Origin: Planctomycetota bacterium | Lineage (GTDB): Bacteria > Planctomycetota > SBBH01 > JAHFOU01 | Direction of reading: 5' to 3' | DNA length: 25,842 nucleotides | Assembly (NCBI GenBank): GCA_023261525.1 | Contig: JAHFOU010000002.1 | Coordinates: 1 to 25,842, forward strand | Shown: piece by piece, positions 11,331-24,848 of the stretch | How positions within the stretch are numbered: the stretch's first letter is position 1 | Layout of the letters: every line of letters starts with the position of its first letter | The notes under the pieces: model-generated | Told to the model about the DNA's origin: nothing | What the model saw: the letters and a program-made list of their open reading frames with translations, nothing else | Database searches by the model: none | Translations under genes and position numbers: made by a program

Positions 11331-12600
11331 CTTCGAATACCGCGGGGTCGGTCTCCATACCGGCCGCGAGGCGCACGTACGCGTCCGCCCCGCGCCGGAG
11401 AACCACGGCGTGGTCTTCCAGCGCACGGACCTCCCGGGACGCCCCCTCATCGCCGCCCACGTCTCCAACGTCGTCGAGCGCCCGCGCCAGACGGCCATCG
11501 GAACGGGGATGGGCCAGGTCCAGACCGCCGAGCACCTCCTGGCCTCCCTGGCCGGCATGGGCGTGGACAACTGCCTCATCGAGATCGACGGGGACGAGGT
11601 CCCCGGGGCCGACGGCAGCGCCCGCGAGTTCGTCCAGCTCCTCTCCAAGGTCGGGCTGAAGGAGCAGGCCGCGGAGCGGAAGATCTTCAAGGTGAAGACC
11701 CCCATCTCGGTCTCGGTCGGGGACGTCTCCCTGGTGGCCCTACCCTCGCGCGGCGAGGGCCTGACCATCTCCTACACCCTGGACTACGCGGACCTGAAGC
11801 CCCAGCACGTCACCTTCTCCCTGACCCCGGGGATCTTCGTCGAGGAGATCTCCGGCGCCCGCACCTTCTGCCTGGAGAAGGAGGCGGAGGCCCTGCGCGC
11901 CGCCGGCCTGGGCAAGGGGGCCAACTACCAGAACACCCTGGTCCTGAGCTCGGGCGGCGTCGTCCAGAACACCCTGCGCTATGACGACGAGTGCGTGCGC
12001 CACAAGGTCCTGGACCTGATCGGCGACCTCTCCCTCCTCGGCGCGGCCATCGACGGCCACGTGGTGGCCGTGAAGTCCGGCCATGCCACCAACACGGCCC
12101 TGGCCCGCAAGATGGACGAATCCATGCGGGGGCGGTCCTTCTCCGTCCTAAACGTGGAGGAGATCCAGCGCCTCCTGCCCCACCGCTACCCCTTCCTGCT
12201 CGTGGACCGCATCGCGGAGCTGGAGCCGGGCAAGCGGGCTCTGGGCATCAAGAACGTCACGGTCAACGAGGAGTTCTTCCAGGGGCACTTCCCGGGCCGT
12301 CCCATCATGCCGGGCGTCCTCCAGCTCGAGGCCCTGGCCCAGGTCGGGGGCGTCCAGCTCCTGGCCAGCATCGGCGGCGAGGGCAAGCTGGTGGTCCTCT
12401 TGACCATCGACGAGGCAAAGTTCCGCCGCAACGTGGTGCCGGGCGACCAGCTCCTGCTCGAGGCCGTCAGCATCAAGATCAAGGAGCGCACCGGCCAGGT
12501 CCAGGGGCGGGCCTTCGTGGATGGCCAGCTGGTCTGCGAGGCCATGATGAAGTTCATGATCGTGGACAATCCCCCGCCGGCTTCCCGGCCCCAGCCTTGA
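11299..12600 (+). CDS. lpxC-fabZ: Bifunctional LpxC deacetylase / FabZ dehydratase fusion (TTG start at 11299)
   Basis: [30 protein letters not shown] (LpxC); [33 protein letters not shown] (FabZ). TTG is preceded by AGGA and overlaps the 3' end of lpxD by 32 nt. Confidence 0.95.
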
Positions 12601-13391
12601 TCCATCCCACGGCGGTCGTCTCCCCCAAGGCCCGCCTGGGCAAGGGCGTGGAGGTGGGCCCCCACGCGGTGGTGGGCGACGACGTCGTCCTGGGCGACGG
12701 CTGCGTCCTCATGGCCCACGCGGTGGTGCTGGGCCCCTCGACCCTGGGCCGGGAGAACCGCATCTTCCCCGGCGCCGTGCTGGGCGCCGAGCCTCAGGAC
12801 CTCAAGTACAAGGGCGGGAAGACCACGCTGGAGGTCGGCGACCGCAACCTGTTCCGGGAAAGCGTGACCGTGAACCGGGGCACCGAGAAGGGCGGCGGCG
12901 TCACCCGGATCGGGTCCGACAACCTCCTCATGGCCTGCTCCCATGTGGCCCATGACTGCCGGCTGGGCGACGGGATCGTGATCGCCAACGGGGTCCTGCT
13001 GGCCGGCCACGTCCATGTCGACTCCCACGTCCATCTGATGGGGCTGGCGGCCATCCACCAGTTCTCCACCGTGGGCCGGTACGCCTTCGTGGCGGGCTAC
13101 ACGCCGGTCGCCCAGGACGTCCCGCCCTTCATGATCGTCCAGGGCATCCCGCCCCGCGTGCGCGGCGTGAACGAGATCGGCTTGGGCCGCCACGGGTTCT
13201 CCCCTGAGCGCATCCAGGCCGTCAAGGACGCCTGCAAGAAGCTCTACCGTTCCGGGGCCCTGCGCGGCGAGGCCCTCCAGGCCCTGGAGTTGGCCGGGGA
13301 CGCCAACCCCGACCTCAAGCTCCTGGTCGAGGCGCTCAAGGCCTCGGACCAGGGCAAGCACGGCCGGGCCCTCGAAGCCACGCGCGCATGA
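12597..13391 (+). CDS. lpxA: Acyl-ACP--UDP-N-acetylglucosamine acyltransferase (TTG start, TTGA overlap)
   Basis: IHPTAVV, PQDLKYKG, RESVTVNRGT, HVAHDC, HQF, QDVPPF within ORF 11991..13391. Confidence 0.95.
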   Translation: MIHPTAVVSPKARLGKGVEVGPHAVVGDDVVLGDGCVLMAHAVVLGPSTLGRENRIFPGAVLGAEPQDLKYKGGKTTLEVGDRNLFRESVTVNRGTEKGGGVTRIGSDNLLMACSHVAHDCRLGDGIVIANGVLLAGHVHVDSHVHLMGLAAIHQFSTVGRYAFVAGYTPVAQDVPPFMIVQGIPPRVRGVNEIGLGRHGFSPERIQAVKDACKKLYRSGALRGEALQALELAGDANPDLKLLVEALKASDQGKHGRALEATRA

Positions 13392-14392
13392 GCTTCCGCG
13401 CGGCGGTCGTGGGGGTGGGCCACCTGGGCCGCCACCATGCCCGGATCTGGTCCCAGCTTCCCGGCGTGGAGCTGGTCGCCGTCTCCGACCTGGACTCCAC
13501 CCGGGTGGGGGAGGTGGCGCGGGACTGCGGGGCCAAGCCCCTGAGGGACTACCGCGACATCCCCGAGGTGGATGCCGTCTCCGTGGCGGTGCCCACGGTG
13601 GGCCACCACGAAGTGGCGACCCACTTCCTTTCCCGAGGGATCCCGGTCCTGGTCGAGAAACCCATGACCACCACCTCCGCCCAGGCCGAGGCCCTGGTGG
13701 CCCTGGCGCGTCAGAAGAAGGTCCATCTCCAGCCGGGCTTCGTCGAGCGCTTCAATCCCGCGCTCAAGGCCGCCTCCTCCATCCTCAAGCGCCCCCGCTT
13801 CATCGAGGCGATCCGGATCTCGCCCCTCCAGTTCCGCTCCCTGGACATCGGGGTGGTCATGGACCTCATGATCCACGATCTCGACATCGTCCTCTGGCTG
13901 GCGGGGGCCCCGGTCCAGCGGGTCGAGGCCCTGGGGGTGAACGTCCTGACGGGGCATGAGGACCTGGCCAAGGTCCGCCTGACGTTCGCGAACGGCTGCC
14001 AGGCCGACCTCACGGCCAGCCGGATCGCCACCAAGACGGTGCGGGAGATCCGCGTCTTCCAGGAGGACGCCTACCTCTCCCTGGATTACGGCGAGAAGCG
14101 GGTCAAGGTCTGCCGCAAGAAGGGGGACCCGCCCCGCAACCCCATCCTGCTGGCGGGCCTCCTGGCCGCGTCGGGGGGGGATCCCAAGGCCCTCATGGCC
14201 CGCTACCTGGACCTCCAGGACCTGCCCATCGACGACGAGGAGCCCCTGGCGGCCGAGATCCGCTCCTTCCTGGCCGTGGTCCGCGACGGCGCCGCGGCGG
14301 TCGTGACGGGGGAGGACGCCCTGGCTGCCCTGAAAGTCGCTGAGCGCATCCGCCAGGAGATCCAGGCCGCTTCCTCGGCGGCGGCCCGCTAG
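13388..14392 (+). CDS. Gfo/Idh/MocA NAD-dependent oxidoreductase, GnnA-like (candidate UDP-GlcNAc 3-dehydrogenase)
   Basis: GVGHLG, VLVEKP, GFVERFNP, DLMIHDLD; ATGA-coupled to lpxA. Confidence 0.85.
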   Translation: MSFRAAVVGVGHLGRHHARIWSQLPGVELVAVSDLDSTRVGEVARDCGAKPLRDYRDIPEVDAVSVAVPTVGHHEVATHFLSRGIPVLVEKPMTTTSAQAEALVALARQKKVHLQPGFVERFNPALKAASSILKRPRFIEAIRISPLQFRSLDIGVVMDLMIHDLDIVLWLAGAPVQRVEALGVNVLTGHEDLAKVRLTFANGCQADLTASRIATKTVREIRVFQEDAYLSLDYGEKRVKVCRKKGDPPRNPILLAGLLAASGGDPKALMARYLDLQDLPIDDEEPLAAEIRSFLAVVRDGAAAVVTGEDALAALKVAERIRQEIQAASSAAAR

Positions 14393-14395
14393 AAT
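14390..14395 (+). promoter_or_regulatory. -10 box (TAGAAT) built on the upstream stop codon; leaderless arsC
   Basis: TAG stop plus AAT, then 6 nt (ccatcc), then ATG 14402. Confidence 0.55.
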
Positions 14396-14401
14396 CCATC
14401 C

Positions 14402-14821
14402 ATGCCCCTTCCCCATGTCCTGTTCCTGTGTACCGCCAACTCCTGCCGGAGCCAGATCGCCGAGGGCCTCTTCCGGGCCCTGGCGCCGGAGGGGTGGGAG
14501 GTGGAGAGCGCGGGGACCAACCCGGTGGGGCATGTGCATCCCGGGGCTATCGCTACCATGAAGGAGGCGGGGATCGACATCTCCGCCCAGCAGTCCAAGG
14601 GGATCGATCCGGGGATCTATGAGCGCGCCACCCTGATCGTGACGGTCTGCGGCCACGCCGACGAGCGATGCCCCGTCCCGCCGCCGGGGACGGTCAAGAT
14701 CCACTGGCCCATCGAGGATCCGGTGGCCAGGGCCTCCTTCGGGGAGGTCCGGGAGGATCTTCGGGCCCGGGTGACGGAGCTGATCGGCGAGCTGGGTGGG
14801 AAAATCAGGAATTCCCGTTGA
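14402..14821 (+). CDS. arsC: Thioredoxin-coupled arsenate reductase (LMW-PTP fold)
   Basis: CTANSCRSQIAEG (CX5R), a second Cys pair TVCGHADERCP, and HWPIEDP. Confidence 0.85.
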   Translation: MPLPHVLFLCTANSCRSQIAEGLFRALAPEGWEVESAGTNPVGHVHPGAIATMKEAGIDISAQQSKGIDPGIYERATLIVTVCGHADERCPVPPPGTVKIHWPIEDPVARASFGEVREDLRARVTELIGELGGKIRNSR

Positions 14822-14841: not shown

Positions 14842-14861
14842 ATGTGAGTGTTCACTCACAT
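14842..14861. promoter_or_regulatory. Palindromic operator, probable TetR binding site, overlapping the tetR start codon
   Basis: ATGTGAGTG-TT-CACTCACAT has perfect 9-bp arms in an AT-rich intergenic region; TTGATT at 14818-14823 and TAGTAT at 14838-14843 are nearby. Confidence 0.75.
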
Positions 14862-15462
14862 GATTCTGGACGCCAAAACCGCCGAGAACGCCCCCGTCCG
14901 CCGGGGGGCCGCCGCCCGCCTCCGCCTGGAGAAGGCGGCCCTGCGCTGCTTCGTCCGCCGTGGGATCGACGCGGCCACGACGAAGGAGATCGCGAAGGCC
15001 GCCCGCATGGCCGAAGGCAACCTCTACCGCCACTTCTCCAGCAAAGAGGACCTGGCCTGGGCCCTGTACAAGGACCGCCTGGCCTCCTTCGTCGCCCTCC
15101 TGGAGGAGGACGCCCGTTGCGACGGGGGGGCTCGCGCCCGCTTGGAAGCCCTGCTGGGGCGCTTCCGCCGCCTGCTGGAGGAGGACCCGGACACCTACGC
15201 CTACATCGTCCTGGCCCAGCACAGCCTCCTGAACCGGACGCCCAAGGGGATGCACACGCCGACGGACGTGGTGGCGGGGATCCTGGCCGAGGGCCAGAAG
15301 AAGGGGGAGGTGCGCGCGGGCTCGGCGGACCTCCTGGCCACCCTGCTGGTGGGGATGGTGATCCGGGTGACCCTGCTCAAGATGTCGGGGCACCTGGAGG
15401 GGGGGGCGGCGGCGTTGGAGCGGGAGCTCGCCGGGGCCTGCTGGCGCGTGGTAGCGGGATGA
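14860..15462 (+). CDS. TetR/AcrR family transcriptional regulator (ATG 14860 preferred over GTG 14848)
   Basis: HTH: FVRRGIDAATTKEIAKAARMAEGNLYRHFSSKEDL. Confidence 0.92.
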   Translation: MILDAKTAENAPVRRGAAARLRLEKAALRCFVRRGIDAATTKEIAKAARMAEGNLYRHFSSKEDLAWALYKDRLASFVALLEEDARCDGGARARLEALLGRFRRLLEEDPDTYAYIVLAQHSLLNRTPKGMHTPTDVVAGILAEGQKKGEVRAGSADLLATLLVGMVIRVTLLKMSGHLEGGAAALERELAGACWRVVAG

Positions 15463-15478
15463 AACAAGGAGGGACTGC

Positions 15479-16879
15479 ATGAAACCTTCCACCCTGACGG
15501 AACTCCTCCGGGACGCTGCCGCCCTCCACGCGGAGCGCACTGCCCTGGCCGGCCCGGCCGGGCCCTCCATCACCTTCGGCCAACTCGCCCAGCGCGCCGA
15601 GGCCGTTTCCAAGGCCCTGGGGCCCTCCTCGGGGGAAGTGATCGGCCTCCTCTCCCCCAACCGCCCCGAGTGGGCCGTGGCCTTCTTCGGCATCCTGGGC
15701 TCCGGGGCTGCCGTCCTTCCCCTGGATCCCCACCTGACGCCCGAGGAATTGGCCAACGCTCGGGCCCAGTTCGGATGCCGCCGCATCCTGGGGCTGGATC
15801 TTCCCCTGGAGCCCTCTGGAGACAAAGGTGGGAAGCTCCCGAAGGCCCGCCCCGGGGATCTGGCCGTTCTCATCGCCTCTTCCGGCACCACCGGCAAGCC
15901 CAAGGGCGTGATGCTGAGCCACGCCAACCTCCTGGCCAATCTGGGCCAGTTCCGCGCCGTGATGCCCTTGGGGCCCGAGGACGCCTTCCTGGGCCTCCTG
16001 CCGCTTCATCATGCTTTTCCCCTCATGGGCTGTCTGCTCGCCGCCGTCTCCTGCGGCGGACGCCTGGTCTTTCCCGAGGCCCCCAAGCCGGCGGCCATCC
16101 TCCAGGCCATCTCGAATGGCGGGGTCAGCCATGCCCTCTTCGTTCCCGGTCTGCTGAGGCTGATGCTGAAGGTGGTGGAGAAGGCCGGGGGGCCCGCGGC
16201 CCTGGGTCCGGCCTTCCGCGTGGCCGTGGTCGGGGGGGCGCCTTGCCCTCCGGCCGTGCTGGAGGCCGCGGCTGCGTTGGGGGTGAAGGCCCTCCAGGGC
16301 TATGGGATGTCCGAGGCCTCGCCGGTGATCTCGCTCAACACCTTCGAGGCCGACCGGCCCGGGAGCGCGGGCCTTCCCGTGCCGGGCCCGGAGCTGAGGA
16401 TCGAGGGAACCGGCGAAGGCGAGCTCCTCGTCCGGGGCCCCAACGTGATGATGGGCTACTGGCAGGATGCGGAGCGCACGGCCGAGACTTTACAGGACGG
16501 CTGGCTGAGGACGGGGGACATCGCGGCGCGGGACGCGGACGGCTTCCTCTGGATCCGGGGACGCTCCAAGAACGTGATCATCTCGGAGTCCGGCAAGAAC
16601 GTCTACCCAGAGGAGATCGAAGCGGAGCTGGTCAAGTCGGAGCGCTTCCGCGAGGTCTGCGTGCTGGGGCGCGTCGTGGACGGCAGCGAGCGCATCGTGG
16701 CCGTGGTCATCCCGCATCAGCCCATGACGCTGGAGGAGGCCCGCGCCGAGGCGGCGGCCCGCGGCGCCTCCCTGGCAGAGTTCAAGCGCATCCAGGACGT
16801 GGTGCTCTGGGAGGGGGAGTTGCCGAAGACGGCCTCGGGGAAGGTTAAGATCGCCGCCGTAAGGGAGGGCCTGCGATGA
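15479..16879 (+). CDS. Long-chain fatty acid--CoA/ACP ligase (AMP-binding, FadD/Aas-like)
   Basis: SSGTTGKPKGVMLSHANL, QGYGMSE, WLRTGD, GRSKNVI...GKNVYPEEIE, KTASGKVK; strong AGGAGG SD. Confidence 0.92.
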   Translation: MKPSTLTELLRDAAALHAERTALAGPAGPSITFGQLAQRAEAVSKALGPSSGEVIGLLSPNRPEWAVAFFGILGSGAAVLPLDPHLTPEELANARAQFGCRRILGLDLPLEPSGDKGGKLPKARPGDLAVLIASSGTTGKPKGVMLSHANLLANLGQFRAVMPLGPEDAFLGLLPLHHAFPLMGCLLAAVSCGGRLVFPEAPKPAAILQAISNGGVSHALFVPGLLRLMLKVVEKAGGPAALGPAFRVAVVGGAPCPPAVLEAAAALGVKALQGYGMSEASPVISLNTFEADRPGSAGLPVPGPELRIEGTGEGELLVRGPNVMMGYWQDAERTAETLQDGWLRTGDIAARDADGFLWIRGRSKNVIISESGKNVYPEEIEAELVKSERFREVCVLGRVVDGSERIVAVVIPHQPMTLEEARAEAAARGASLAEFKRIQDVVLWEGELPKTASGKVKIAAVREGLR

Positions 16880-17463
16880 CCCTGTCCGACCGCCTGGTCC
16901 TGCTCACCATCGGCGTCTTCCTGATCGTGGGGGTGTACCAGTTCTACTTCTGGTGCCAGCGCCAGAGCTTCCGCCCATCCCGGGGCTTCCGGACGGGCCT
17001 GGATGACCGCATCCCGTACTGGCCCTCCTGGGTCTGGGTCTACAGCGGCCTCTACTACCCGGTCGTCCTGTACACGGTCTGGACCCTCCGGGACTTCCGG
17101 CAGTTCGGGTACCTGGTGGCGAGCTACCTGGTCCTGCTGGGGATGCAGATGTCCTGTTTCCTGCTCTTCCCGGTCGAGACGCCGGAGACCTGGAGGGTGA
17201 AGGAGCCCCGCAACCGCTCCGAGCGCTTCCTGGCCTATGTGCACAGCTTCGACCAGCGTTCCAACTGCTTCCCGAGCATGCACGTCTCGGTGGCCCTGCT
17301 GACGGCCTGCCACATCCATCCCTTCCTGGGGGCGTGGGCCTGGGCCTTCCCCGCCCTGATCGGCGTGAGCTGCCTGTTCACGAAACAGCACTACCTGGTG
17401 GACCTGCCGCCGGGGGCGCTCGTGGGCTGGGCGGCCTGGAAGGCATATCTGTGGATGGTATGA
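16876..17463 (+). CDS. PAP2-superfamily membrane protein (Aur1/IPC-synthase-like; has FPSMH and HYLVD motifs, lacks the KxxxxxxRP motif)
   Basis: Multiple TM helices, NCFPSMHVS and KQHYLVD; ATGA overlap with the ligase. Confidence 0.8.
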   Translation: MTLSDRLVLLTIGVFLIVGVYQFYFWCQRQSFRPSRGFRTGLDDRIPYWPSWVWVYSGLYYPVVLYTVWTLRDFRQFGYLVASYLVLLGMQMSCFLLFPVETPETWRVKEPRNRSERFLAYVHSFDQRSNCFPSMHVSVALLTACHIHPFLGAWAWAFPALIGVSCLFTKQHYLVDLPPGALVGWAAWKAYLWMV

Positions 17464-18188
17464 TTCATCCCTCCCTCTGGGTCTTTGCGGCCGCGGTGCT
17501 CATGGCCACGTTCGAGACGGCCCGGCCCGTCCGCCGCTGGCCCAAGGTTCCTGGATGGCTCCTGAGGGCCATTCCCCTTAATTTGGTGCAGGTGGGTTCC
17601 GTTTGGCTTGCCGGGGTCCTCTGGGATCCCTGGTTGCTCCGCCACCGTCCCTGGTCGGCCGCGGGTCTGGGCGTCCTGGGTGGGGCTACAGTGGGATACC
17701 TGGCCCACACCTTCCTGTTCTACTGGTGGCACCGCTGGCGTCATGAGGTTCCTTTGCTCTGGCGCCTCTTCCATCAGGTTCACCACAGCCCTCAACGGAT
17801 CGAGGTGATCACCAGCTTCTACAAGCATCCTCTCGAGATCCTGGTCAACGGCCTGCTCTTCAGCGGAATGGTGTATGGGGTGGTCGGTATCAGCCCTCAG
17901 GCAGGGGCCTTGGCGGCCTTGTTCTGCGGCCTGGCTGAGCTGTTCTATCATTGGAACGTCCGTACCCCGCGTTGGCTTGGCTGGCTGATCCAGCGCCCGG
18001 AGAGCCACTGCGTGCATCACGAGGAGGGGGTACATCGCTGGAATTACGGCGACCTCCCGCTCTGGGATTTCCTGTTCGGCACCCTGAGGAATCCGGAGAC
18101 ATGGGAGGCACGCTGCGGTTTCGGCCCCGAGCCTGAGCAGAGGCTGGGCGAGATGCTCCGAGGCGTGGACATCCGGGGAGAACAGTGA
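17460..18188 (+). CDS. Fatty acid hydroxylase / sterol desaturase family di-iron membrane enzyme (start ATG 17460)
   Basis: His boxes WHRWRH, HQVHH, HCVHH plus NYG...WDFLFGT; ATGA overlap with the upstream stop. Confidence 0.9.
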   Translation: MIHPSLWVFAAAVLMATFETARPVRRWPKVPGWLLRAIPLNLVQVGSVWLAGVLWDPWLLRHRPWSAAGLGVLGGATVGYLAHTFLFYWWHRWRHEVPLLWRLFHQVHHSPQRIEVITSFYKHPLEILVNGLLFSGMVYGVVGISPQAGALAALFCGLAELFYHWNVRTPRWLGWLIQRPESHCVHHEEGVHRWNYGDLPLWDFLFGTLRNPETWEARCGFGPEPEQRLGEMLRGVDIRGEQ

Positions 18189-18673
18189 AGGCGGCTGCGT
18201 TCGTTCTGTGCGGGCTGGGTCTGGCCCAGATGGCCGGAGACCTCCTTGGCCTCCCCCTGCTCAAGGGCTTGGGTGCGGCCACGGCGGCTTCCCCAGCTCC
18301 CAAGGTCTTCACCGCTGTCCGCGGGCTGGAGACCTATTCCACGGCTTTTTTCCTGGAATGGACGGATCGCGGAGGCCATCCCCACAGCCTTCACCTGACC
18401 CCCGAGGTCTATGCCCGCATCCGTGGGCCCTACAACCGGCGGAACGTCTATGGCGCGGCCCTTTCCTATGGGCCCGTGCTCGCTTCGAATCCCCGGACCC
18501 GGCCGATGTTCGACGACGTGATCCGTCATGCCTTGGGTGGGAATGCTCCGCTTCTTCGTGAGCTCGGCGTGGATCCGGCCGAAGTCGCTCTGCCTGTCCG
18601 CCTCCGCCTGGTGCCTCGCGAGGGATCCCGCCTTGAGGCTCTTCCCTTGGTGTTGGAGGCGCCTTCCCCATGA
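18185..18673 (+). CDS. Hypothetical protein with an N-terminal hydrophobic segment; probable partner of the HTTM protein
   Basis: GTGA and ATGA overlaps on both sides; protein-like composition (SPAPKVF, GLETYS, GPYNRRNVYGAALSYGP). Confidence 0.75.
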   Translation: MKAAAFVLCGLGLAQMAGDLLGLPLLKGLGAATAASPAPKVFTAVRGLETYSTAFFLEWTDRGGHPHSLHLTPEVYARIRGPYNRRNVYGAALSYGPVLASNPRTRPMFDDVIRHALGGNAPLLRELGVDPAEVALPVRLRLVPREGSRLEALPLVLEAPSP

Positions 18674-19905
18674 AGGCCAACGGCTGGACCGGCGGGCAGT
18701 ACAGCCTCTTCCGTTTCGCATTGGGGATCTATCTTGCGCTTCATTTCAGCCAGCTCGCGCCTTGGGGGGCGGAGGTCTTCTCGGGCGCGGGGGTGATCCC
18801 GCGGGCCTCGGACAGCCCTCTGTCCGGCCTGTTCCCGAACGTGCTACTCCTGTGGGACGGGCCCGTCTTCGTGACGGCCATCCTTTGGGGTGCTGCCGGG
18901 ATGGCCCTGGCGTTCGCATGGGGATGGAGGGACAGGGTATTCGCGGTCCTGCTCTGGTACGTCTGGGCCTGTCTGCTGGGCCGCAATCCCCTCATCTCGA
19001 ATCCGGGACTTCCTTACGTGGGATGGATCCTCCTGGCCCACGCCTGCCTTCCCAGGGCCCCCTACCTGTCCTGGGAGGCCCGCAAGCGTGCGGATCCGGC
19101 GGGGGGCTGGGCCATGCCCCAGTCCCTCTTCATCGTGGCCTGGATCCTCATGGCCCTGGGCTACAGCTACAGCGGGTGGACCAAGCTGGACAGCCCCTCC
19201 TGGCTGGACGGCTCCGCCCTGTCCCGGGTCCTGGAGAACCCCTTGGCGCGACCTGGCGCCCTGCGCGGTGTGGTGCTGTCGCTTCCGCCGGGGCTGCTCC
19301 GAGGGATGACCTGGGCCTCCCTGGCCCTGGAACTGGGCTTCGCTCCGCTGGTGCTCTTCCGCCGTTTGAGGCCCTGGGTCTGGCTGGCCATGCTGGGGAT
19401 GCATGCCGGTCTGGTCCTGCTCCTGGATTTCGCCGACCTGAGCTTCGGTATGGTGATGCTGCATGCCTTCACCTTCGATCCGGCATGGATCCGGCCCCGG
19501 GGGACTGCGGCCCGGATCTTCTATGACGGGGGTTGCGGGCTCTGCCACCGCTGGGTGCGTTTTGTATTGGCCGAAGATCGGGAAGGGGTCTTCCGGTTCG
19601 CGCCCCTGGGTGGCGCCGCCTTCCTTGCCAGCGTCCCCCAGACATCCCGGGAAAACCTGCCGGACAGCCTGGTGGTGGAGATGGAGGGAGGCGTGTTGCT
19701 GTCCCGCTCCGCCGCCGTCCTGGCCATCTTGGCCCGGCTGGGAGGGGTCTGGGGAATCCTTTCCGGGGTGGGGGGGATGTTTCCGGCCGGATTCCTGGAC
19801 TTGGCGTACGATGCGGTAGCCCGCGTCCGCCGTCGGATCTTCAGCCCTCCGTCCGGAGCCTGTCCCCTTCTGCCGCGTCCTCTCGCGGTCCGGTTCCTGC
19901 CATAA
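18670..19905 (+). CDS. HTTM-domain membrane protein fused to a C-terminal DCC1-like (DUF393) thiol-disulfide oxidoreductase
   Basis: HTTM-type segments FRFALGIY, LGRNPLISN, YSYSGWTKL...WLDGSAL, LELGF, MHAG; DCC1 motif IFYDGGCGLCHRWVRF...FRFAPL from about 19510. Confidence 0.82.
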   Translation: MKANGWTGGQYSLFRFALGIYLALHFSQLAPWGAEVFSGAGVIPRASDSPLSGLFPNVLLLWDGPVFVTAILWGAAGMALAFAWGWRDRVFAVLLWYVWACLLGRNPLISNPGLPYVGWILLAHACLPRAPYLSWEARKRADPAGGWAMPQSLFIVAWILMALGYSYSGWTKLDSPSWLDGSALSRVLENPLARPGALRGVVLSLPPGLLRGMTWASLALELGFAPLVLFRRLRPWVWLAMLGMHAGLVLLLDFADLSFGMVMLHAFTFDPAWIRPRGTAARIFYDGGCGLCHRWVRFVLAEDREGVFRFAPLGGAAFLASVPQTSRENLPDSLVVEMEGGVLLSRSAAVLAILARLGGVWGILSGVGGMFPAGFLDLAYDAVARVRRRIFSPPSGACPLLPRPLAVRFLP

Positions 19906-19919
19906 TGGTGCTATAGCCC

Positions 19920-21854
19920 ATGCCCTCCCCCCTCGCCTCGGCCCTTCGGAACCCCCGCTTCCTGAAGCTCCTGGCCGGGCAGTGCATCTCGGCCATCGGG
20001 GACCGCTTCACCGAGCTGGCCCTGCTCTCCCTGGCCCTGGGCGGCCAAGCCTCCGCCGAGCTGGCCCGCCTCGACTTCTGGTCCTATCTGCCCTGGATCC
20101 TCTTGGGCCCCTTCGCTGGCCTCCTGGTGGATCGCTACTCCCGCAGGAAGCTCATGATCGCCGCCGACCTGGGCCGCCTCGGCTTGGTCCTCACCCTGTT
20201 CGCCTTCGGCCTGAGGGACGGGCAGGACCTGGGCGGGACCTATCCCGTCCTGTTCGCCATGGGCATGCTGAGCACCGTCTTCTCCCCGGCCAAGTCCGCC
20301 TGCCTGCCCGACCTCGTCCCGGTCGAGCAGGTGATGCCGGCCGGGGCCCTGCTGGCGGCCGTCGGGGTCGCCTCCACGGCCCTCGGCTCCACGCTGGCCG
20401 GCAAGGTCATCGACACCTGGGGATGGCGGGCCTGCCTGGGGGTGGATGCGCTGAGCTTCGGCCTCTCCGCGGCCTTCATCTGGAGCATCTCCTTCCCGGT
20501 CGTCGCGGCTGCGCCCCGGGTGGCATCCTCCTTCGCCGGGACCCTGAAGGACCTGGCCGCCGGCTTGAGGGAGATGCGGCGGAACCCCGAGCTGAGGCCG
20601 ATCTGCGCCTTCCTCTTCGTGTTCTGGTTCGTGGCGAACAGCGTGAAGGTCCTCGCCCCGAACTTCGCCAAGGAGGCCCTGGCCCTGCAGACGGGACAGC
20701 CGGGGGGGATGACCTCGGTGGGGCACACCATGACCCTGGCCGGCCTGGGCCTGCTGGCCGGGGCGGCCCTCACGGCCCTGGCGGGGCACCGGATCGCCCG
20801 GCGGGCGGCCTACTTTCTGGCCTCGGCGGGGATGGGGGGAGGCCTGCTGGGCCTGACATCTTCCCACGCCTGGGGCCCTGCCCTGTTCTGGCTCTTCATC
20901 ACCGGCCTGGCGGGAGGGACCCTGGTCTCCCGGGTGGACGCGGACATCCTGAAGGTGGTGGCTCCGGGGATGCGGGGCCGGATCTTCGGGGCCGTCTCCG
21001 TGCTCTTCGCGGGAGCCCTGCTGAGCCCCTTGAGGCCCATCGGCTGGCTTTCCCAGCGCGCGACCGCGGCCAGCATCCTCCAGGTCCTGGCCTGGATCCT
21101 GCTGGGGCTGGCTGTCCTCGTCCTGCTCCGCCTGCTGAGGGACCTGAAGGCGGGAAGGCCGCTGATCCTGCCGCTCGGAGAGGCTCGCCCCCAGGCCCTG
21201 CCGGACACTGCGGCCTATCCCCTCATCCGCCTCCTCGGCCATCTGATCTTCAAGCCGCTCTACCGCCTCCGCTCCCACGGGGAAGAACAGGTTCCCGCCG
21301 AGGGCCCCGTCATCCTGGCCGCCAACCACTCCTCCTACTGGGACCCGGTCTTCCTTCAGCTCTCCCTCCCGGACCGCCAGGTGCGCTGGCTCATGGACGA
21401 GGACTACTACAACCTGCCCGTCCTGCGCTGGTTCTTCCGTGCGGTGGGCTGCATTCCGGTGAAGAATTCCGGGGGCAACCGCCGGGCCCTGGACGCAGCC
21501 GTCCAGGTGCTCAAGGCCGGCGGGGTGCTGGGCATCTTCCCGGAGGGCCACATCTCCCGCACGGGGCGCATGGACCAGGCCCACACGGGGGTCTCCTTGC
21601 TCTCCGCGAGGACAGGGGCCCCGGTGATGCCGGCGTATTTGAGAGGCGCCATGTTCTCCTGGCCGAAAGGGCAGAAGCTTCCGCGCCTGTCCCGGGTGGA
21701 GGTGAGGTTCGCGGAGCCCATGCGCCTGCCGGAGGGGGAGGGGGCGGAGAAGGCGGCCCTGCGCGCCTTTGCCGATCGACTCATGGCCCAGATCAAGGGA
21801 CTCTACGGGCGCGGGTCCGCGCGGGTGGGGCCGAGGGGGGAGGGGGAGGCGTGA
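19920..21854 (+). CDS. MFS transporter (LplT-like) fused to a PlsC-type lysophospholipid acyltransferase
   Basis: MFS motif LLVDRYSRRKLMIAADLGR and about 12 hydrophobic segments; acyltransferase motifs NHSSYWD (HxxxxD, about 21324), FPEG and PVMPAYL. Confidence 0.88.
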   Translation: MPSPLASALRNPRFLKLLAGQCISAIGDRFTELALLSLALGGQASAELARLDFWSYLPWILLGPFAGLLVDRYSRRKLMIAADLGRLGLVLTLFAFGLRDGQDLGGTYPVLFAMGMLSTVFSPAKSACLPDLVPVEQVMPAGALLAAVGVASTALGSTLAGKVIDTWGWRACLGVDALSFGLSAAFIWSISFPVVAAAPRVASSFAGTLKDLAAGLREMRRNPELRPICAFLFVFWFVANSVKVLAPNFAKEALALQTGQPGGMTSVGHTMTLAGLGLLAGAALTALAGHRIARRAAYFLASAGMGGGLLGLTSSHAWGPALFWLFITGLAGGTLVSRVDADILKVVAPGMRGRIFGAVSVLFAGALLSPLRPIGWLSQRATAASILQVLAWILLGLAVLVLLRLLRDLKAGRPLILPLGEARPQALPDTAAYPLIRLLGHLIFKPLYRLRSHGEEQVPAEGPVILAANHSSYWDPVFLQLSLPDRQVRWLMDEDYYNLPVLRWFFRAVGCIPVKNSGGNRRALDAAVQVLKAGGVLGIFPEGHISRTGRMDQAHTGVSLLSARTGAPVMPAYLRGAMFSWPKGQKLPRLSRVEVRFAEPMRLPEGEGAEKAALRAFADRLMAQIKGLYGRGSARVGPRGEGEA

Positions 21855-23252: not shown

Positions 23253-24341
23253 ATGCTTTCCGTCTCCGCCGACCTGTAGGATGTCGCCGCCAAGGCCCTG
23301 GCGGGGGAGCGGATCGACGCCCAAGACGCCGAGGCCTGCTACCGCACGTCCGACCTCCCCGGCCTGGGCTGGATCGCCAACCAGGTGAGGGAAAAGCGCC
23401 ACGGCAACAAGGCCACCTACATCGTCAACTCCCACCTCAACTACTCCAACCTCTGCACCCTGGCCTGCAAGTTCTGCGCCTTCGCTCGCACCAGAGGGCG
23501 CGAAGGCGCCTACGAGCTGAGCCTGCCCCAGATCCTGGAGAAGGCCGACCGGGCCGCCGCCCTGGGCGCCTCCGAGCTCCACATCGTCGGCGGCCTCCAT
23601 CCCGACCTTCCCTATGCCTGGTACCTGGAGATGCTCTCCACCCTGAGGGCCAAGCATCCGGCGATGCACCTCAAGGCCTTCACCGCCGTCGAGATCCGCT
23701 ACCTTGCCGACCTGGCCAAGAAGCCCATCCGCGACGTCCTCGTCGAGCTGCGCGAAGCCGGCCTGGGCTCCCTGCCCGGGGGCGGGGCCGAGATCTTCGC
23801 CGAGAAGGTCCGCAAGGAGATCTGCGGCCCCAAGGACACCTCGGCCGAGTGGCTGGAGGTCCACCGCATCGCCCACGGCCTGGGCCTGCGCTCCACGGCC
23901 ACCATGCTCTACGGCCACATCGAGAGCGCCGCCGACCGGGTGGACCATCTGATGCGCCTCAGGGCCCTCCAGGACGAGACCAAGGGCTTCCTGGCCTTCA
24001 TCCCGCTCTCCTTCCATCCGGAAGGGACCCGCATCGTGGTCCACCAGGCCTCCGGGATGGAGGACCTGCGCAACGTGGCGGTCGCCCGCCTGGTCCTGGA
24101 CAACTTCGACCATGTGAAGGCCTATTGGACCCAGACCGGGCTCAGGCTGGCCCAGCTCGCCCTCCATTTCGGCGCGGACGACATCGACGGCACGGTCGTG
24201 GAGGAGACGATCACCCATATGGCCGGGGGCAAGGCGCCCCGGGGCATGGCCGAGGAGGGTCTGAGGAAGATCATCCGGGCCGCCGGACGGAACCCGGTGC
24301 GGCGGGACACTTTGCATCGGGATCTGGAACAGGCCGCCTGA
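23253..24341 (+). CDS. mqnE: Aminofutalosine synthase MqnE (radical SAM), interrupted by an in-frame TAG at codon 9 (23277-23279); possibly pseudogene, sequencing error or recoded
   Basis: CTLACKFC, ELHIVGGLHP, LKAFTAVEI, LPGGGAEIF, TMLYGHIE, FGADDIDGTVVEE..HMAG. The region between the TAG and GTG 23385 translates as a typical MqnE N-terminus (AKALAGERID...DLPGLGWIANQVREKRHG). Confidence 0.88.
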
Positions 24342-24359: not shown

Positions 24360-24848
24360 ATGCCCCACGCCATCCATGAGACCTGCATCGGCTGCACCGC
24401 CTGCGCGGTGATCTGCCCGACCGAGGCCATCTTCGGGGAGCGCAAGGGCATGCACGTCATCGTGCCCGAGCGCTGCATCGACTGCGGGGCCTGCGGGTCG
24501 GTCTGTCCGGCCGATGCCATCACCGACCAGTTCAAGGCCCTCTCGCCCCAGCGCAAGCGCGCCGAGCTTCCCAAGGCCAAGATCTTCGCGGAACGCTGCA
24601 CCGGCTGCGAGTACTGCGTCCACGTCTGCCCCTACGACTGCCTGGAGGTCAAGGGCGGCACCAACGGCCCCGGGGTCTTCGGGATCTGCGAGATCAACCC
24701 CCAGAAGTGCGTGGGGTGCGGGCTCTGTGTGGCCGTCTGCGACAAGGACGCCATCGTGGTCTTCGACAAGGAAGGGAAGGTCCTGGACCACTCCTTCCTG
24801 AAGCTGAACCCGGCGGGTTACGCGTCGACGTCCGTCGCCCCGCTCTAG
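24360..24848 (+). CDS. Polyferredoxin with four CxxCxxCxxxC [4Fe-4S] motifs
   Basis: CIGCTACAVICP, CIDCGACGSVCP, CTGCEYCVHVCP, CVGCGLCVAVCD. Confidence 0.92.
   Translation: MPHAIHETCIGCTACAVICPTEAIFGERKGMHVIVPERCIDCGACGSVCPADAITDQFKALSPQRKRAELPKAKIFAERCTGCEYCVHVCPYDCLEVKGGTNGPGVFGICEINPQKCVGCGLCVAVCDKDAIVVFDKEGKVLDHSFLKLNPAGYASTSVAPL

What the first reader, a model, noticed from the sequence alone, without database searches (positions are those of the whole stretch)
18185..19905. HTTM-DCC1 fusion plus small partner: a self-contained vitamin-K-carboxylase-like redox module near mqnE
Seen: an HTTM membrane domain fused to a DxxCxxC thioredoxin-like domain, preceded by a coupled 162-aa membrane-anchored protein; a menaquinone biosynthesis gene and a polyferredoxin lie 3-5 kb downstream on the same strand. 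Known: HTTM is the membrane core of vitamin K-dependent gamma-glutamyl carboxylase. Bacterial relatives include SdpB (works with the small partner SdpA) and MloH (malonomycin carboxylation), and animal GGCX depends on thiol-driven VKOR recycling. Inference: the fusion may combine a quinone-dependent modifying enzyme with its own thiol recycling, acting on a lipid rather than a peptide, since no precursor peptide or NRPS is visible.
Basis: partly seen in the sequence, partly recalled or inferred. Interest (0 to 1): 0.7.

Follow-up and report, generated by a model that had tools for sequence, protein, structure and literature searches.

The report
Bacterial carboxylase-like lipid oxygenase gene trio
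The two flagged genes are real, but they belong to a three-gene membrane cassette (an iron hydroxylase, a small anchored subunit, and a vitamin-K-carboxylase-like core fused to a thiol domain) that is widespread in bacteria, untested, not tied to menaquinone, and closest to a module recently described in giant viruses.

Summary
Observation confirmed. Gene 18670-19905 encodes an 8-helix membrane domain with the fold of the human vitamin K carboxylase (GGCX) core, fused to a DCC1-like DxxCxxC domain. A translationally coupled 162-aa membrane-anchored protein precedes it.

- The conserved unit has three genes, not two. The upstream fatty-acid-hydroxylase-family (FAH) gene keeps the same order in 46 of 80 loci from many phyla and in all 11 other planctomycete loci.
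- The small protein is fused to FAH in at least 80 protein clusters. One lineage fuses FAH, HTTM and the small protein into one chain.
- mqnE, the polyferredoxin, the acyl ligase, PAP2 and MFS-acyltransferase are not conserved neighbours.
- The cassette occurs in ubiquinone-only genomes that lack menaquinone genes.
- The proposed Lys (K172) aligns with GGCX K218, but the Glu-pocket Asn/His are replaced by Pro/Gly. Protein carboxylation is therefore unlikely.
- The thiol domain lies on the cytoplasmic side, opposite K172.

The closest described system is the giant-virus VKOR + epoxidase-desaturase (VKED) module. The Yasminevirus protein is 41% identical to this HTTM domain. The best reading is a quinol- and O2-dependent lipid hydroxylase/desaturase complex, and its function is untested. 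This scan noted the same trio earlier on other DNA.

The parts
17460..18188 (+). FAH-superfamily di-iron hydroxylase/desaturase ('sterol desaturase family'), first gene of the conserved trio. The likely start is ATG 17460, which overlaps the PAP2 stop; the longest ORF starts at GTG 17334.
   Evidence: Pfam FA_hydroxylase 102.1 bits. His boxes HRWRH, HQVHH and HCVHH are conserved in 45 orthologues, and conservation begins near residue 43 of the long ORF. The gene lies upstream of the small gene in 46 of 80 loci and in the 11 phylum loci.
18185..18673 (+). Small subunit of 162 aa: an N-terminal TM anchor (residues 2-21), a conserved linker ASPAPKVF, and an alpha/beta domain carrying the motif GPYNRRNVYGA. 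It belongs to no Pfam family.
   Evidence: A Cys pair covaries across homologues (20 with both, 9 with neither, 1 with one), which suggests a periplasmic disulfide; this window's copy has lost both Cys. The protein is fused to the C-terminus of FAH in at least 80 clusters.
18670..19500 (+). HTTM / GGCX-like membrane core (residues 1-277, 8 TM helices, N-terminus in). K172 = GGCX K218, E221 = D263, L248 = N290, S258 = S300, W273 = W315; P112/G113 replace N159/H160.
19516..19905 (+). DCC1-like thioredoxin-fold domain (residues 283-391) with D286-x-x-C289-x-x-C292, plus a C-terminal tail with the near-invariant C398. Predicted to be cytoplasmic.
   Evidence: Pfam 69.6 bits. 70 of 70 family members carry DCC1. 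C289 is present in 69/70, C292 in 70/70 and C398 in 66/70. Topology comes from the positive-inside count and the GGCX mapping.
15479..17463 (+). Local, non-conserved operon partners upstream: an acyl-AMP ligase (15479-16879) and a PAP2_3 protein (16876-17463), each overlapping the next gene by 4 nt.
   Evidence: They are absent from the other trio loci, apart from one distant AMP-ligase gene in L007.
19920..21854 (+). Local, non-conserved downstream gene: an MFS transporter fused to an acyltransferase (LplT/Aas-like).
   Evidence: No match in the other 79 fetched loci.

Best explanation
The locus encodes a three-protein inner-membrane oxygenase complex, the bacterial counterpart of the giant-virus 'vitamin K epoxidase-desaturase' module. 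(1) A di-iron FAH-family hydroxylase/desaturase has its His-box site on the cytoplasmic face. (2) A small subunit crosses the membrane once and places a disulfide-stabilised domain in the periplasm. (3) A truncated GGCX-like core keeps the quinol-activating Lys (K172, paired with E221) at the periplasmic face, lacks the Glu-carboxylation residues, and carries a cytoplasmic DCC1 CxxC domain. Inferred mechanism: the HTTM core binds a prenylquinol (menaquinol or ubiquinol, whichever the host makes) and oxidises it with O2. This reaction is coupled to FAH-catalysed hydroxylation or desaturation of a common membrane lipid. The DCC1 thiols supply or recycle reducing equivalents in place of a separate VKOR. 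Shown here: the fold, the residue correspondences, the gene linkage, the fusions, the phylogenetic spread and the independence from menaquinone. Inferred: quinol use, coupling to FAH, the lipid substrate and the role of the thiols.
For: GGCX fold: Z 17.3 and Foldseek E 2e-6, with only GGCX chains matching. K172/E221/L248 correspond to GGCX K218/D263/N290 by hhalign to canonical planctomycete HTTM proteins (98.5%), which in turn align gap-free to human GGCX (E 3e-51). This is the same K / D-to-E / N-to-hydrophobic signature reported for the viral VKE domains (10.64898/2026.03.26.714578). The top BFVD hit is the Yasminevirus VKED A0A5K0UBG6: E 9.5e-19, rmsd 2.3 A, 283 columns, 41% identity. The FAH-small-HTTM-DCC order is constant in 46 of 80 loci from more than 10 phyla and in all 11 other loci found through the small protein in 201 planctomycete genomes. 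Rosetta-stone fusions exist: FAH+small in at least 80 clusters, and FAH+HTTM+small in one chain that was assembled three times independently. Flanking genes are unrelated housekeeping genes and no precursor gene is present. In this window the cassette sits inside an acyl-ligase / PAP2 / MFS-acyltransferase operon.
Against: There is no biochemical evidence for any member, and the viral coupling model is itself a hypothesis. The K172 site and the FAH/DCC1 sites lie on opposite membrane faces, so direct electron or base transfer is not obvious. K172 is Lys in only 51 of 70 diverse family members (7 Arg, 3 His). One natural triple fusion lacks DCC1, so the thiols are not essential to the core. Ubiquinol has never been shown to support GGCX-type chemistry, yet ubiquinone-only hosts carry the cassette. 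The lipid context of this window is not conserved elsewhere.
Confidence: 0.45

Rival explanations
1. The HTTM core is catalytically silent. It serves as a membrane scaffold or lipid-access channel for the FAH enzyme, and the DCC1 CxxC domain is the true cytoplasmic electron donor or regulator of the di-iron site, replacing cytochrome b5 or ferredoxin.
For: FAH and DCC1 are both predicted on the cytoplasmic face. No ferredoxin, rubredoxin or cytochrome b5 gene is conserved next to the cassette. K172 is not invariant across the wider family.
Against: K172, E221, W178, S258 and W273, which map to the GGCX quinone-site region, are invariant among the 14 close homologues aligned (A1) and map as shown. 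A natural FAH+HTTM+small fusion lacks DCC1, so DCC1 cannot be the obligatory donor.
Confidence: 0.15
2. A transmembrane thiol-redox relay of the LMF1 or DsbD type. Cytoplasmic DCC1 thiols pass reducing equivalents through the HTTM core, possibly via a bound quinone or C101, to the periplasmic side, without any GGCX-like epoxidation.
For: LMF1 has been proposed as a candidate shuttle of disulfides across the ER membrane (10.1101/830026). LMF1 is at least detectably related: 2 of 70 family members hit the LMF1 Pfam model. The CxxC and C398 are near-invariant, and C101 in TM3 is conserved in 44 of 70.
Against: The periplasmic Cys pair of the small subunit is lost in 9 of 30 homologues, including this one, so it is structural rather than catalytic. 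This model does not explain the obligate FAH partner. The DCC1-less fusion exists.
Confidence: 0.13
3. A true vitamin-K-type carboxylase, like GGCX or MloH, that adds CO2 to a lipid or small molecule.
For: The GGCX fold and the catalytic Lys are conserved. MloH shows that bacterial HTTM enzymes can carboxylate non-protein substrates (cited in 10.64898/2026.08.19.745780).
Against: N159/H160 are replaced by P112/G113. The region equivalent to GGCX residues 330 onward is missing from the polypeptide, and the small subunit shows no profile similarity to the GGCX-like C-terminal domain. The viral relatives with the same signature were judged by their authors to be epoxidases only.
Confidence: 0.1
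4. An SdpA/SdpB-like maturation or export system for a secreted peptide or protein.
For: The small-gene-then-HTTM-gene arrangement mirrors sdpAB. There is a weak SdpB hit (TIGR04033, 33.7 bits). The ESM Atlas places the small protein near clusters in which 11% of members carry SdpA.
Against: The SdpB score is far below its cut-off of 178.4. None of 30 small-protein homologues hits SdpA or DUF5819 at E<=1. No conserved precursor gene was found in about 57 loci. The small protein is fused to a lipid-type hydroxylase.
Confidence: 0.05

Closest known systems
Giant-virus vitamin K redox module: VKOR + gamma-carboxylase-like epoxidase (VKE) fused or adjacent to a sterol-desaturase-family enzyme (VKED); Collins et al., bioRxiv 10.64898/2026.03.26.714578
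   Same: A truncated GGCX-like core is paired with an FAH-family di-iron enzyme. The core keeps K218, has D263 as Glu and N290 as a hydrophobic residue, and lacks the carboxylation region. The Yasminevirus VKED is the best viral structural match: 41% identity, E 9.5e-19. In both systems the Lys is on the extracytoplasmic face and the His boxes on the cytoplasmic face.
   Different: The bacterial form has no adjacent VKOR; a Trx-fold DCC1 CxxC domain is fused to the core instead. It adds a small TM-anchored periplasmic subunit, which was not examined in the viral proteins. The gene order is FAH-small-HTTM. It occurs in ubiquinone-only hosts that lack VKOR. The preprint does not discuss bacterial homologues, and its coupling mechanism is hypothetical.
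DUF5819 + HTTM-DCC1 gene pairs of Bacillota (Melghirimyces), modelled by AlphaFold 3 as a split GGCX-like complex; bioRxiv 10.64898/2026.08.19.745780
   Same: Both have an HTTM domain fused to DCC1-like, preceded by a gene for a single-TM protein with an extracytoplasmic domain. The conserved Lys and Trp are 6 residues apart (K189/W195 there, K172/W178 here).
   Different: The small protein here is not DUF5819 by Pfam (0 of 30) and shows only an ESM-feature resemblance (0.86). An FAH gene is an obligate third member here.
Human GGCX (for example PDB 9L6Q, 9BVQ)
   Same: The fold of TM1-TM8 is shared (Z 17.3, 268 residues, model 1-273 matching GGCX 54-315). K218, S300 and W315 are conserved.
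   Different: Sequence identity is 16%. There is no TM9, linker or luminal propeptide-binding domain. N159/H160 are Pro/Gly, W157 is Ser and F299 is Leu. DCC1 is fused. No Gla-type substrate is known.
B. subtilis SdpA/SdpB
   Same: A small protein gene is followed by an HTTM membrane protein gene.
   Different: Scores are far below the SdpB family cut-off (33.7 against 178.4 bits). There is no SdpA hit and no sdpC-like precursor, and FAH and DCC1 parts are present.

Membership tests
HTTM / GGCX-core superfamily (fold level) | Multi-helix membrane core superposable on GGCX TM1-TM8 and detectable profile homology to HTTM proteins | tested here: met
   VIA Z 17.3, rmsd 4.0 A, 268 residues, with only GGCX chains above Z 9. 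hhalign 98.5%, E 1.5e-15. Pfam HTTM alone is below its cut-off (22.7 against 27.7 bits); 25 of 70 relatives hit it at E<=0.01.
Vitamin K-dependent carboxylase (GGCX-type enzyme) | Catalytic Lys218 with its Asp263 partner | tested here: met
   K172 = K218 and E221 = D263 (a conservative Glu) by two-step alignment. K is present in 51 of 70 diverse relatives and in 14 of 14 close ones.
Vitamin K-dependent carboxylase (GGCX-type enzyme) | Glu-pocket Asn159/His160 (carbanion stabilisation) | tested here: not met
   The aligned positions are P112/G113. N128/H129 are invariant in canonical planctomycete HTTM proteins. There is no His within 2 residues on either side.
Vitamin K-dependent carboxylase (GGCX-type enzyme) | TM9, linker (residues about 374-418) and luminal substrate-binding domain | tested here: not met
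   The HTTM part ends at W273 = GGCX W315 and is followed by DCC1. The small subunit shows no profile similarity to the GGCX-like C-terminal domain (probability 0.1%) and only Z 2.2 to GGCX 404-491.
Vitamin K-dependent carboxylase (GGCX-type enzyme) | Use of a naphthoquinol (vitamin K or menaquinol) cofactor | tested here: inconclusive
   The own genome has mqnE. However, trio-bearing genomes G002-G004 have UbiA over its cut-off and no MenA, MqnA/D or MenD over cut-off. Cofactor binding itself cannot be tested with these tools.
DCC1-like thiol-disulfide oxidoreductase (PF04134) | Profile match over the cut-off and a DxxCxxC motif | tested here: met
   69.6 bits against a cut-off of 27.8; D286, C289 and C292 are present; 70 of 70 relatives match. 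Redox activity was not tested.
FA_hydroxylase superfamily (PF04116), for the upstream gene | Profile match and the His-box motifs of the di-iron site | tested here: met
   102.1 bits. HRWRH, HQVHH and HCVHH are conserved in 45 orthologues. It is not OlsE (36 bits against a cut-off of 475).
SdpA/SdpB system | SdpB-family and SdpA-family matches plus an SdpC-like precursor | tested here: not met
   TIGR04033 scores 33.7 bits against a cut-off of 178.4. No SdpA hit in 30 homologues. No conserved third secreted-peptide gene.
DUF5819 + HTTM(-DCC1) split pair | Partner protein belongs to DUF5819 (PF19136) | tested here: inconclusive
   0 of 30 homologues hit at E<=1, and DUF5819 was not found over its cut-off in 201 planctomycete genomes. 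The ESM Atlas feature score is 0.86 to a cluster with 42% DUF5819 members, and TM 0.73 to a cluster with 11% SdpA members. The architecture (TM anchor plus outer domain, upstream, overlapping) is the same.
Giant-virus VKOR-VKE-desaturase module | Truncated K218-retaining epoxidase domain linked to an FAH-family desaturase | tested here: met
   41% identity and E 9.5e-19 to YsVKED. The active-site signature is the same. FAH is adjacent or fused.
Giant-virus VKOR-VKE-desaturase module | Adjacent VKOR as the recycling enzyme | tested here: not met
   No VKOR lies in the cassette. VKOR is elsewhere in the own genome (C273) and absent from G002-G004. A DCC1 domain is fused instead.

The most novel reading that the evidence does not exclude
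The FAH-small-HTTM(-DCC1) trio is a widespread, horizontally mobile bacterial enzyme class in which GGCX-type quinol oxygenation powers or gates a membrane di-iron lipid hydroxylase/desaturase. This would be a new way to drive such enzymes without cytochrome b5 or ferredoxin, with built-in thiol recycling. It would also be the prokaryotic source of the giant-virus VKED genes and perhaps a clue to the ancestral, pre-carboxylase function of the GGCX fold.
Probability: 0.3. Interest if true: 0.8.

Novelty: new variant of a known kind. Interest (0 to 1): 0.6.

Why it matters
GGCX is the only well-understood enzyme with this fold, and what its many bacterial relatives do is an open question. This cassette links the fold physically, through natural fusions, to a lipid-type di-iron oxygenase in more than ten bacterial phyla. 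It has the same active-site signature as the giant-virus proteins recently proposed to couple vitamin K epoxidation to lipid desaturation.

That makes the proposal testable in simple bacterial systems: three genes, no extra partners, and hosts with either ubiquinone or menaquinone. It also suggests where the viral genes came from. Finally, it shows that the genome annotation 'DCC family thiol-disulfide oxidoreductase YuxK' hides a GGCX-like membrane enzyme.

Tried and rejected
- **Menaquinone link rejected.** mqnE and the ferredoxin are not conserved neighbours, and the cassette is present in genomes without MenA, MenD or MqnA/D.
- **Other local neighbours are not part of the system.** The acyl ligase, PAP2 and MFS-acyltransferase have no matches in the other loci.
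- **Sequence searches against the PDB failed.** The HTTM-DCC profile or its HTTM part found nothing relevant. The residue mapping needed a two-step route through canonical planctomycete HTTM proteins.
- **Small subunit fold.** Foldseek found nothing below E 0.3 and VIA-wide gave a maximum Z of 3.2. hhalign to the GGCX-like C-terminal domain was negative.
- **DUF5819 search.** A search of 201 planctomycete genomes found nothing over the cut-off.
- **Long homologues mostly uninformative.** P0137, P0174 and P0354-P0356 carry unrelated extra domains and may be read-throughs. P0316 (small + HTTM-DCC) lacks the TM anchor and may be an artefact.
- **IMG/VR scan.** A scan with the family alignment found no viral locus, but the patterns used were DCC1-specific.
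- **Solved relatives.** No solved relative by sequence exists for the DCC1 domain or FAH.
- **Upstream ORF.** ORF 14844-15482, called TetR in another note, has no Pfam match at E<=0.001.
Full report
**1. What is in the window**

The stretch 15479-21854 carries six co-oriented genes. The first five boundaries are 4-nt stop/start overlaps, and the last is a 14-nt gap.

| Coordinates | Product | Evidence |
|---|---|---|
| 15479-16879 | acyl-AMP ligase | |
| 16876-17463 | PAP2_3 protein | |
| 17334/17460-18188 | FA_hydroxylase-family (FAH) protein | |
| 18185-18673 | 162-aa protein with no Pfam or NCBIfam match even at E 10 | |
| 18670-19905 | 411-aa protein, DCC1-like 69.6 bits, HTTM 22.7 bits (below cut-off) | |
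| 19920-21854 | MFS transporter fused to an acyltransferase | |

mqnE (23385-24341) and a polyferredoxin (24360-24848) follow on the same strand.

**2. The HTTM assignment is sound**

- With a 70-sequence alignment, AlphaFold2 gives pLDDT 96.2 and pTM 0.93.
- In the PDB the model matches only GGCX chains. Foldseek gives 15 hits between E 2e-6 and 7e-5, and the next hit is at E 0.04.
- VIA-align gives Z 17.3, rmsd 4.0 A and 268 residues, with model 1-273 matching GGCX 54-315. The next unrelated chain scores Z 9.
- Direct sequence searches against the PDB failed, so I bridged through canonical HTTM proteins.
  - Such proteins occur in 34 of 201 Planctomycetota genomes.
  - One of them (L098 ORF, 465 aa) aligns without gaps to human GGCX at E 3e-51, with residue n corresponding to GGCX n+31.
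  - A profile of twelve of them (A4) aligns to the HTTM-DCC family profile at 98.5% probability, E 1.5e-15, over 253 columns.

The resulting residue map:

| This protein | GGCX | Comment |
|---|---|---|
| E221 | D263 | conservative change |
| L248 | N290 | hydrophobic |
| S258 | S300 | conserved |
| W273 | W315 | conserved |
| P112 / G113 | N159 / H160 | Glu-pocket residues lost |
| S110 | W157 | changed |

N159/H160 bind the substrate Glu in GGCX (10.1101/2025.02.09.637231) and are invariant in the canonical planctomycete proteins. The enzyme here keeps the quinol-activating half of the GGCX site and has lost the carboxylation half.

**3. Topology**

Helix positions from the model, the positive-inside count (12 K/R in predicted inner loops against 4 in outer loops) and the GGCX mapping all agree. 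They give eight TM helices with the N-terminus inside, K172 at the periplasmic end of TM5, and the DCC1 domain in the cytoplasm.

The small protein has an N-terminal anchor. Its two Cys covary across 30 homologues: 20 have both, 9 have neither and 1 has one. This fits a structural disulfide in a periplasmic domain. The window's copy has lost both Cys.

The CxxC is therefore on the opposite membrane face from K172. That weakens the idea of direct VKOR-like recycling at the active site.

**4. The conserved unit is a trio**

- A genome-collection scan returned 80 loci from Planctomycetota, Acidobacteriota, Myxococcota, Verrucomicrobiota, Methylomirabilota, Chlamydiota, Cyanobacteria-related lineages, Alpha- and Gammaproteobacteria, Bdellovibrionota, Elusimicrobiota and others.
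- tblastn with the window's proteins shows FAH - small - HTTM-DCC, same strand and same order, in 46 of them. These are essentially all loci above about 47% identity with enough upstream sequence.
- The ligase, PAP2, MFS-acyltransferase, mqnE and ferredoxin are not found next to them.
- All-against-all clustering of ORFs found no other conserved neighbour.
- Twenty flanking genes are unrelated housekeeping genes such as iPGM, MetRS, permeases, a helicase and IS21 IstB. The downstream gene is often convergent.
- Searching from the small protein gives the same picture. It occurs in 12 of 201 Planctomycetota genomes, always in the same arrangement where the contig allows.
- Five genomes carry HTTM-DCC relatives (46-60% identical) without a detectable small gene. 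One of them has a 55-aa remnant upstream.

**5. Natural fusions tie the three proteins together**

- Searching longer proteins with the small subunit returned at least 80 clusters of about 400-430 aa that carry PF04116 plus the whole small protein.
- I verified one of them, P0295, which comes from an 11-Mb contig. Residues 5-237 are FAH (62% identity) and residues 250-396 are the small subunit (55% identity).
- In my own loci L045 and L049, FAH and the small gene are one ORF in the same frame.
- One lineage, P0357 (784 aa), was assembled three times independently. It is a single chain made of FAH, then HTTM TM5-8, then HTTM TM1-4, then the small subunit. This is a topologically consistent circular permutation. 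It has no DCC1 domain and no CxxC.
- The 'small partner' therefore belongs to FAH as much as to HTTM. The core of the system is FAH + HTTM + small, with DCC1 a frequent accessory.

**6. Menaquinone**

- Among genomes that carry the trio, two complete gammaproteobacterial chromosomes (G002, G003) and a Rhodospirillum-labelled MAG (G004) have a proteobacterial UbiA over its cut-off. They have no MenA, no MqnA/D and no MenD over cut-off.
- A Moraxellaceae MAG (G001) also lacks the menaquinone markers.
- These genomes also lack VKOR, whereas the window's own genome has one elsewhere.
- The cassette is therefore not tied to menaquinone. A general prenylquinol remains possible.

**7. The small subunit**

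- It defines a family with no Pfam model: 0 of 30 members hit anything relevant at E<=1.
- It has no convincing solved-structure relative.
- It has no profile similarity to the C-terminal domain of the canonical GGCX-like proteins.
- ESM Atlas neighbours include clusters partly annotated SdpA (11% of members) or DUF5819 (42% of members). This is a lead only.
- An August 2026 preprint models DUF5819 + HTTM-DCC1 of a Bacillota species as a split GGCX-like complex. There, Lys189 and Trp195 lie near the quinol, and the partner's TM helix and linker complete the pocket (10.64898/2026.08.19.745780). The K172/W178 spacing and the invariant ASPAPKVF linker here fit that picture. I could not co-fold the proteins.

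**8. Closest known system**

A note from this scan on other DNA (e1-5057255) describes the same trio and pointed to a March 2026 preprint (10.64898/2026.03.26.714578). I read the preprint.

- It reports that giant viruses encode VKOR next to a truncated gamma-carboxylase-like epoxidase that is fused or adjacent to a sterol-desaturase-family enzyme.
- The viral epoxidase keeps K218, has D263 as Glu and N290 as Ile, and lacks residues 374-418.
- The authors hypothesise that vitamin K epoxidation is coupled to lipid desaturation.
- They do not discuss bacterial homologues.

I tested the link directly. The best BFVD match of my model is the Yasminevirus protein A0A5K0UBG6 (their YsVKED), at E 9.5e-19, rmsd 2.3 A, 283 columns and 41% identity. 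That is far closer than GGCX at 16%. The bacterial trio is thus the prokaryotic counterpart, and plausibly the source, of the viral module. It carries a fused DCC1 thiol domain where the viruses have a separate VKOR, and it adds an extra small subunit.

**9. Mechanism**

Shown: the fold, the residue map, the linkage, the fusions, the spread and the independence from menaquinone.

Inferred: the complex binds a prenylquinol at the K172/E221 site and oxidises it with O2. This is coupled to FAH-catalysed hydroxylation or desaturation of a ubiquitous membrane lipid, since no substrate-synthesis or precursor gene travels with the cassette. DCC1 thiols feed or recycle reducing equivalents. I give this 0.45.

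The opposite-face placement of the two sites is unresolved, as it is in the viral model.

Rivals and their weights:

| Rival | Confidence |
|---|---|
| HTTM is a scaffold and DCC1 is the FAH reductant | 0.15 |
| LMF1/DsbD-like thiol relay | 0.13 |
| True carboxylase | 0.10 |
| SdpAB-like peptide maturation | 0.05 |

In this window the cassette is inserted in a ligase / PAP2 / MFS-acyltransferase operon downstream of lipid A genes. That agrees with a lipid role, but it is a single-genome association.

**10. Verdict**

This is a new variant of a known kind: HTTM/GGCX-like systems, with the nearest relatives being the viral VKED module and the DUF5819 + HTTM-DCC1 pairs. The function is untested. 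The window is one ordinary instance of a cassette that this scan has already met elsewhere.

Noticed in passing
L098:1429-2826 and L099-L112 (other Planctomycetota genomes): Canonical, full-strength HTTM proteins of 450-530 aa occur in 34 of 201 sampled Planctomycetota genomes. One aligns to human GGCX at E 3e-51, including part of the luminal domain, and N159/H160/K218 equivalents are invariant. These look like true GGCX orthologues in bacteria and are distinct from the HTTM-DCC family.
   Followed up: partly
protein P0357 (784 aa; no locus fetched): A natural single-chain fusion of FAH, HTTM TM5-8, HTTM TM1-4 and the small subunit. It is a circular permutation of the HTTM core without DCC1, and it is present in three independent assemblies.
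   Followed up: partly
L009:2236-2403: A 55-aa remnant of the small subunit (linker plus C-terminal motif, middle deleted) lies directly upstream of an intact HTTM-DCC gene. No FAH gene is present. This appears to be a decaying cassette.
   Followed up: partly
L030:7486-7941, L046:7253-7822, L062:5118-5771: Other HTTM-DCC subfamilies are preceded by lipid- or isoprenoid-binding-type proteins instead of FAH + small: SRPBCC/Polyketide_cyc2 in L046 by Pfam and in L030 by the look of its sequence only, and YceI in L062.
   Followed up: no
window 18185-18673: This genome's small subunit has lost both members of the covarying Cys pair (HALGG and EAPSP where most homologues have ALCG and APC).
   Followed up: yes
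window 11991-14821: Upstream genes are an LpxA-type hexapeptide acyltransferase (466 aa), a GFO/IDH/MocA oxidoreductase and a low-molecular-weight phosphatase, so the operon lies next to lipid A-type genes. ORF 14844-15482, called TetR in another note, has no Pfam match at E<=0.001.
   Followed up: partly
G000 contig C129:5354-5779 and C273:6102-6455: The same genome holds a second weak HTTM-like ORF (19.8 bits, 466-aa frame) and a VKOR homologue (38.6 bits).
   Followed up: no
L012:5966-6724: In a Verrucomicrobiales MAG the gene directly upstream of the trio belongs to the TMEM164 family (125.6 bits). This is a single case.
   Followed up: no
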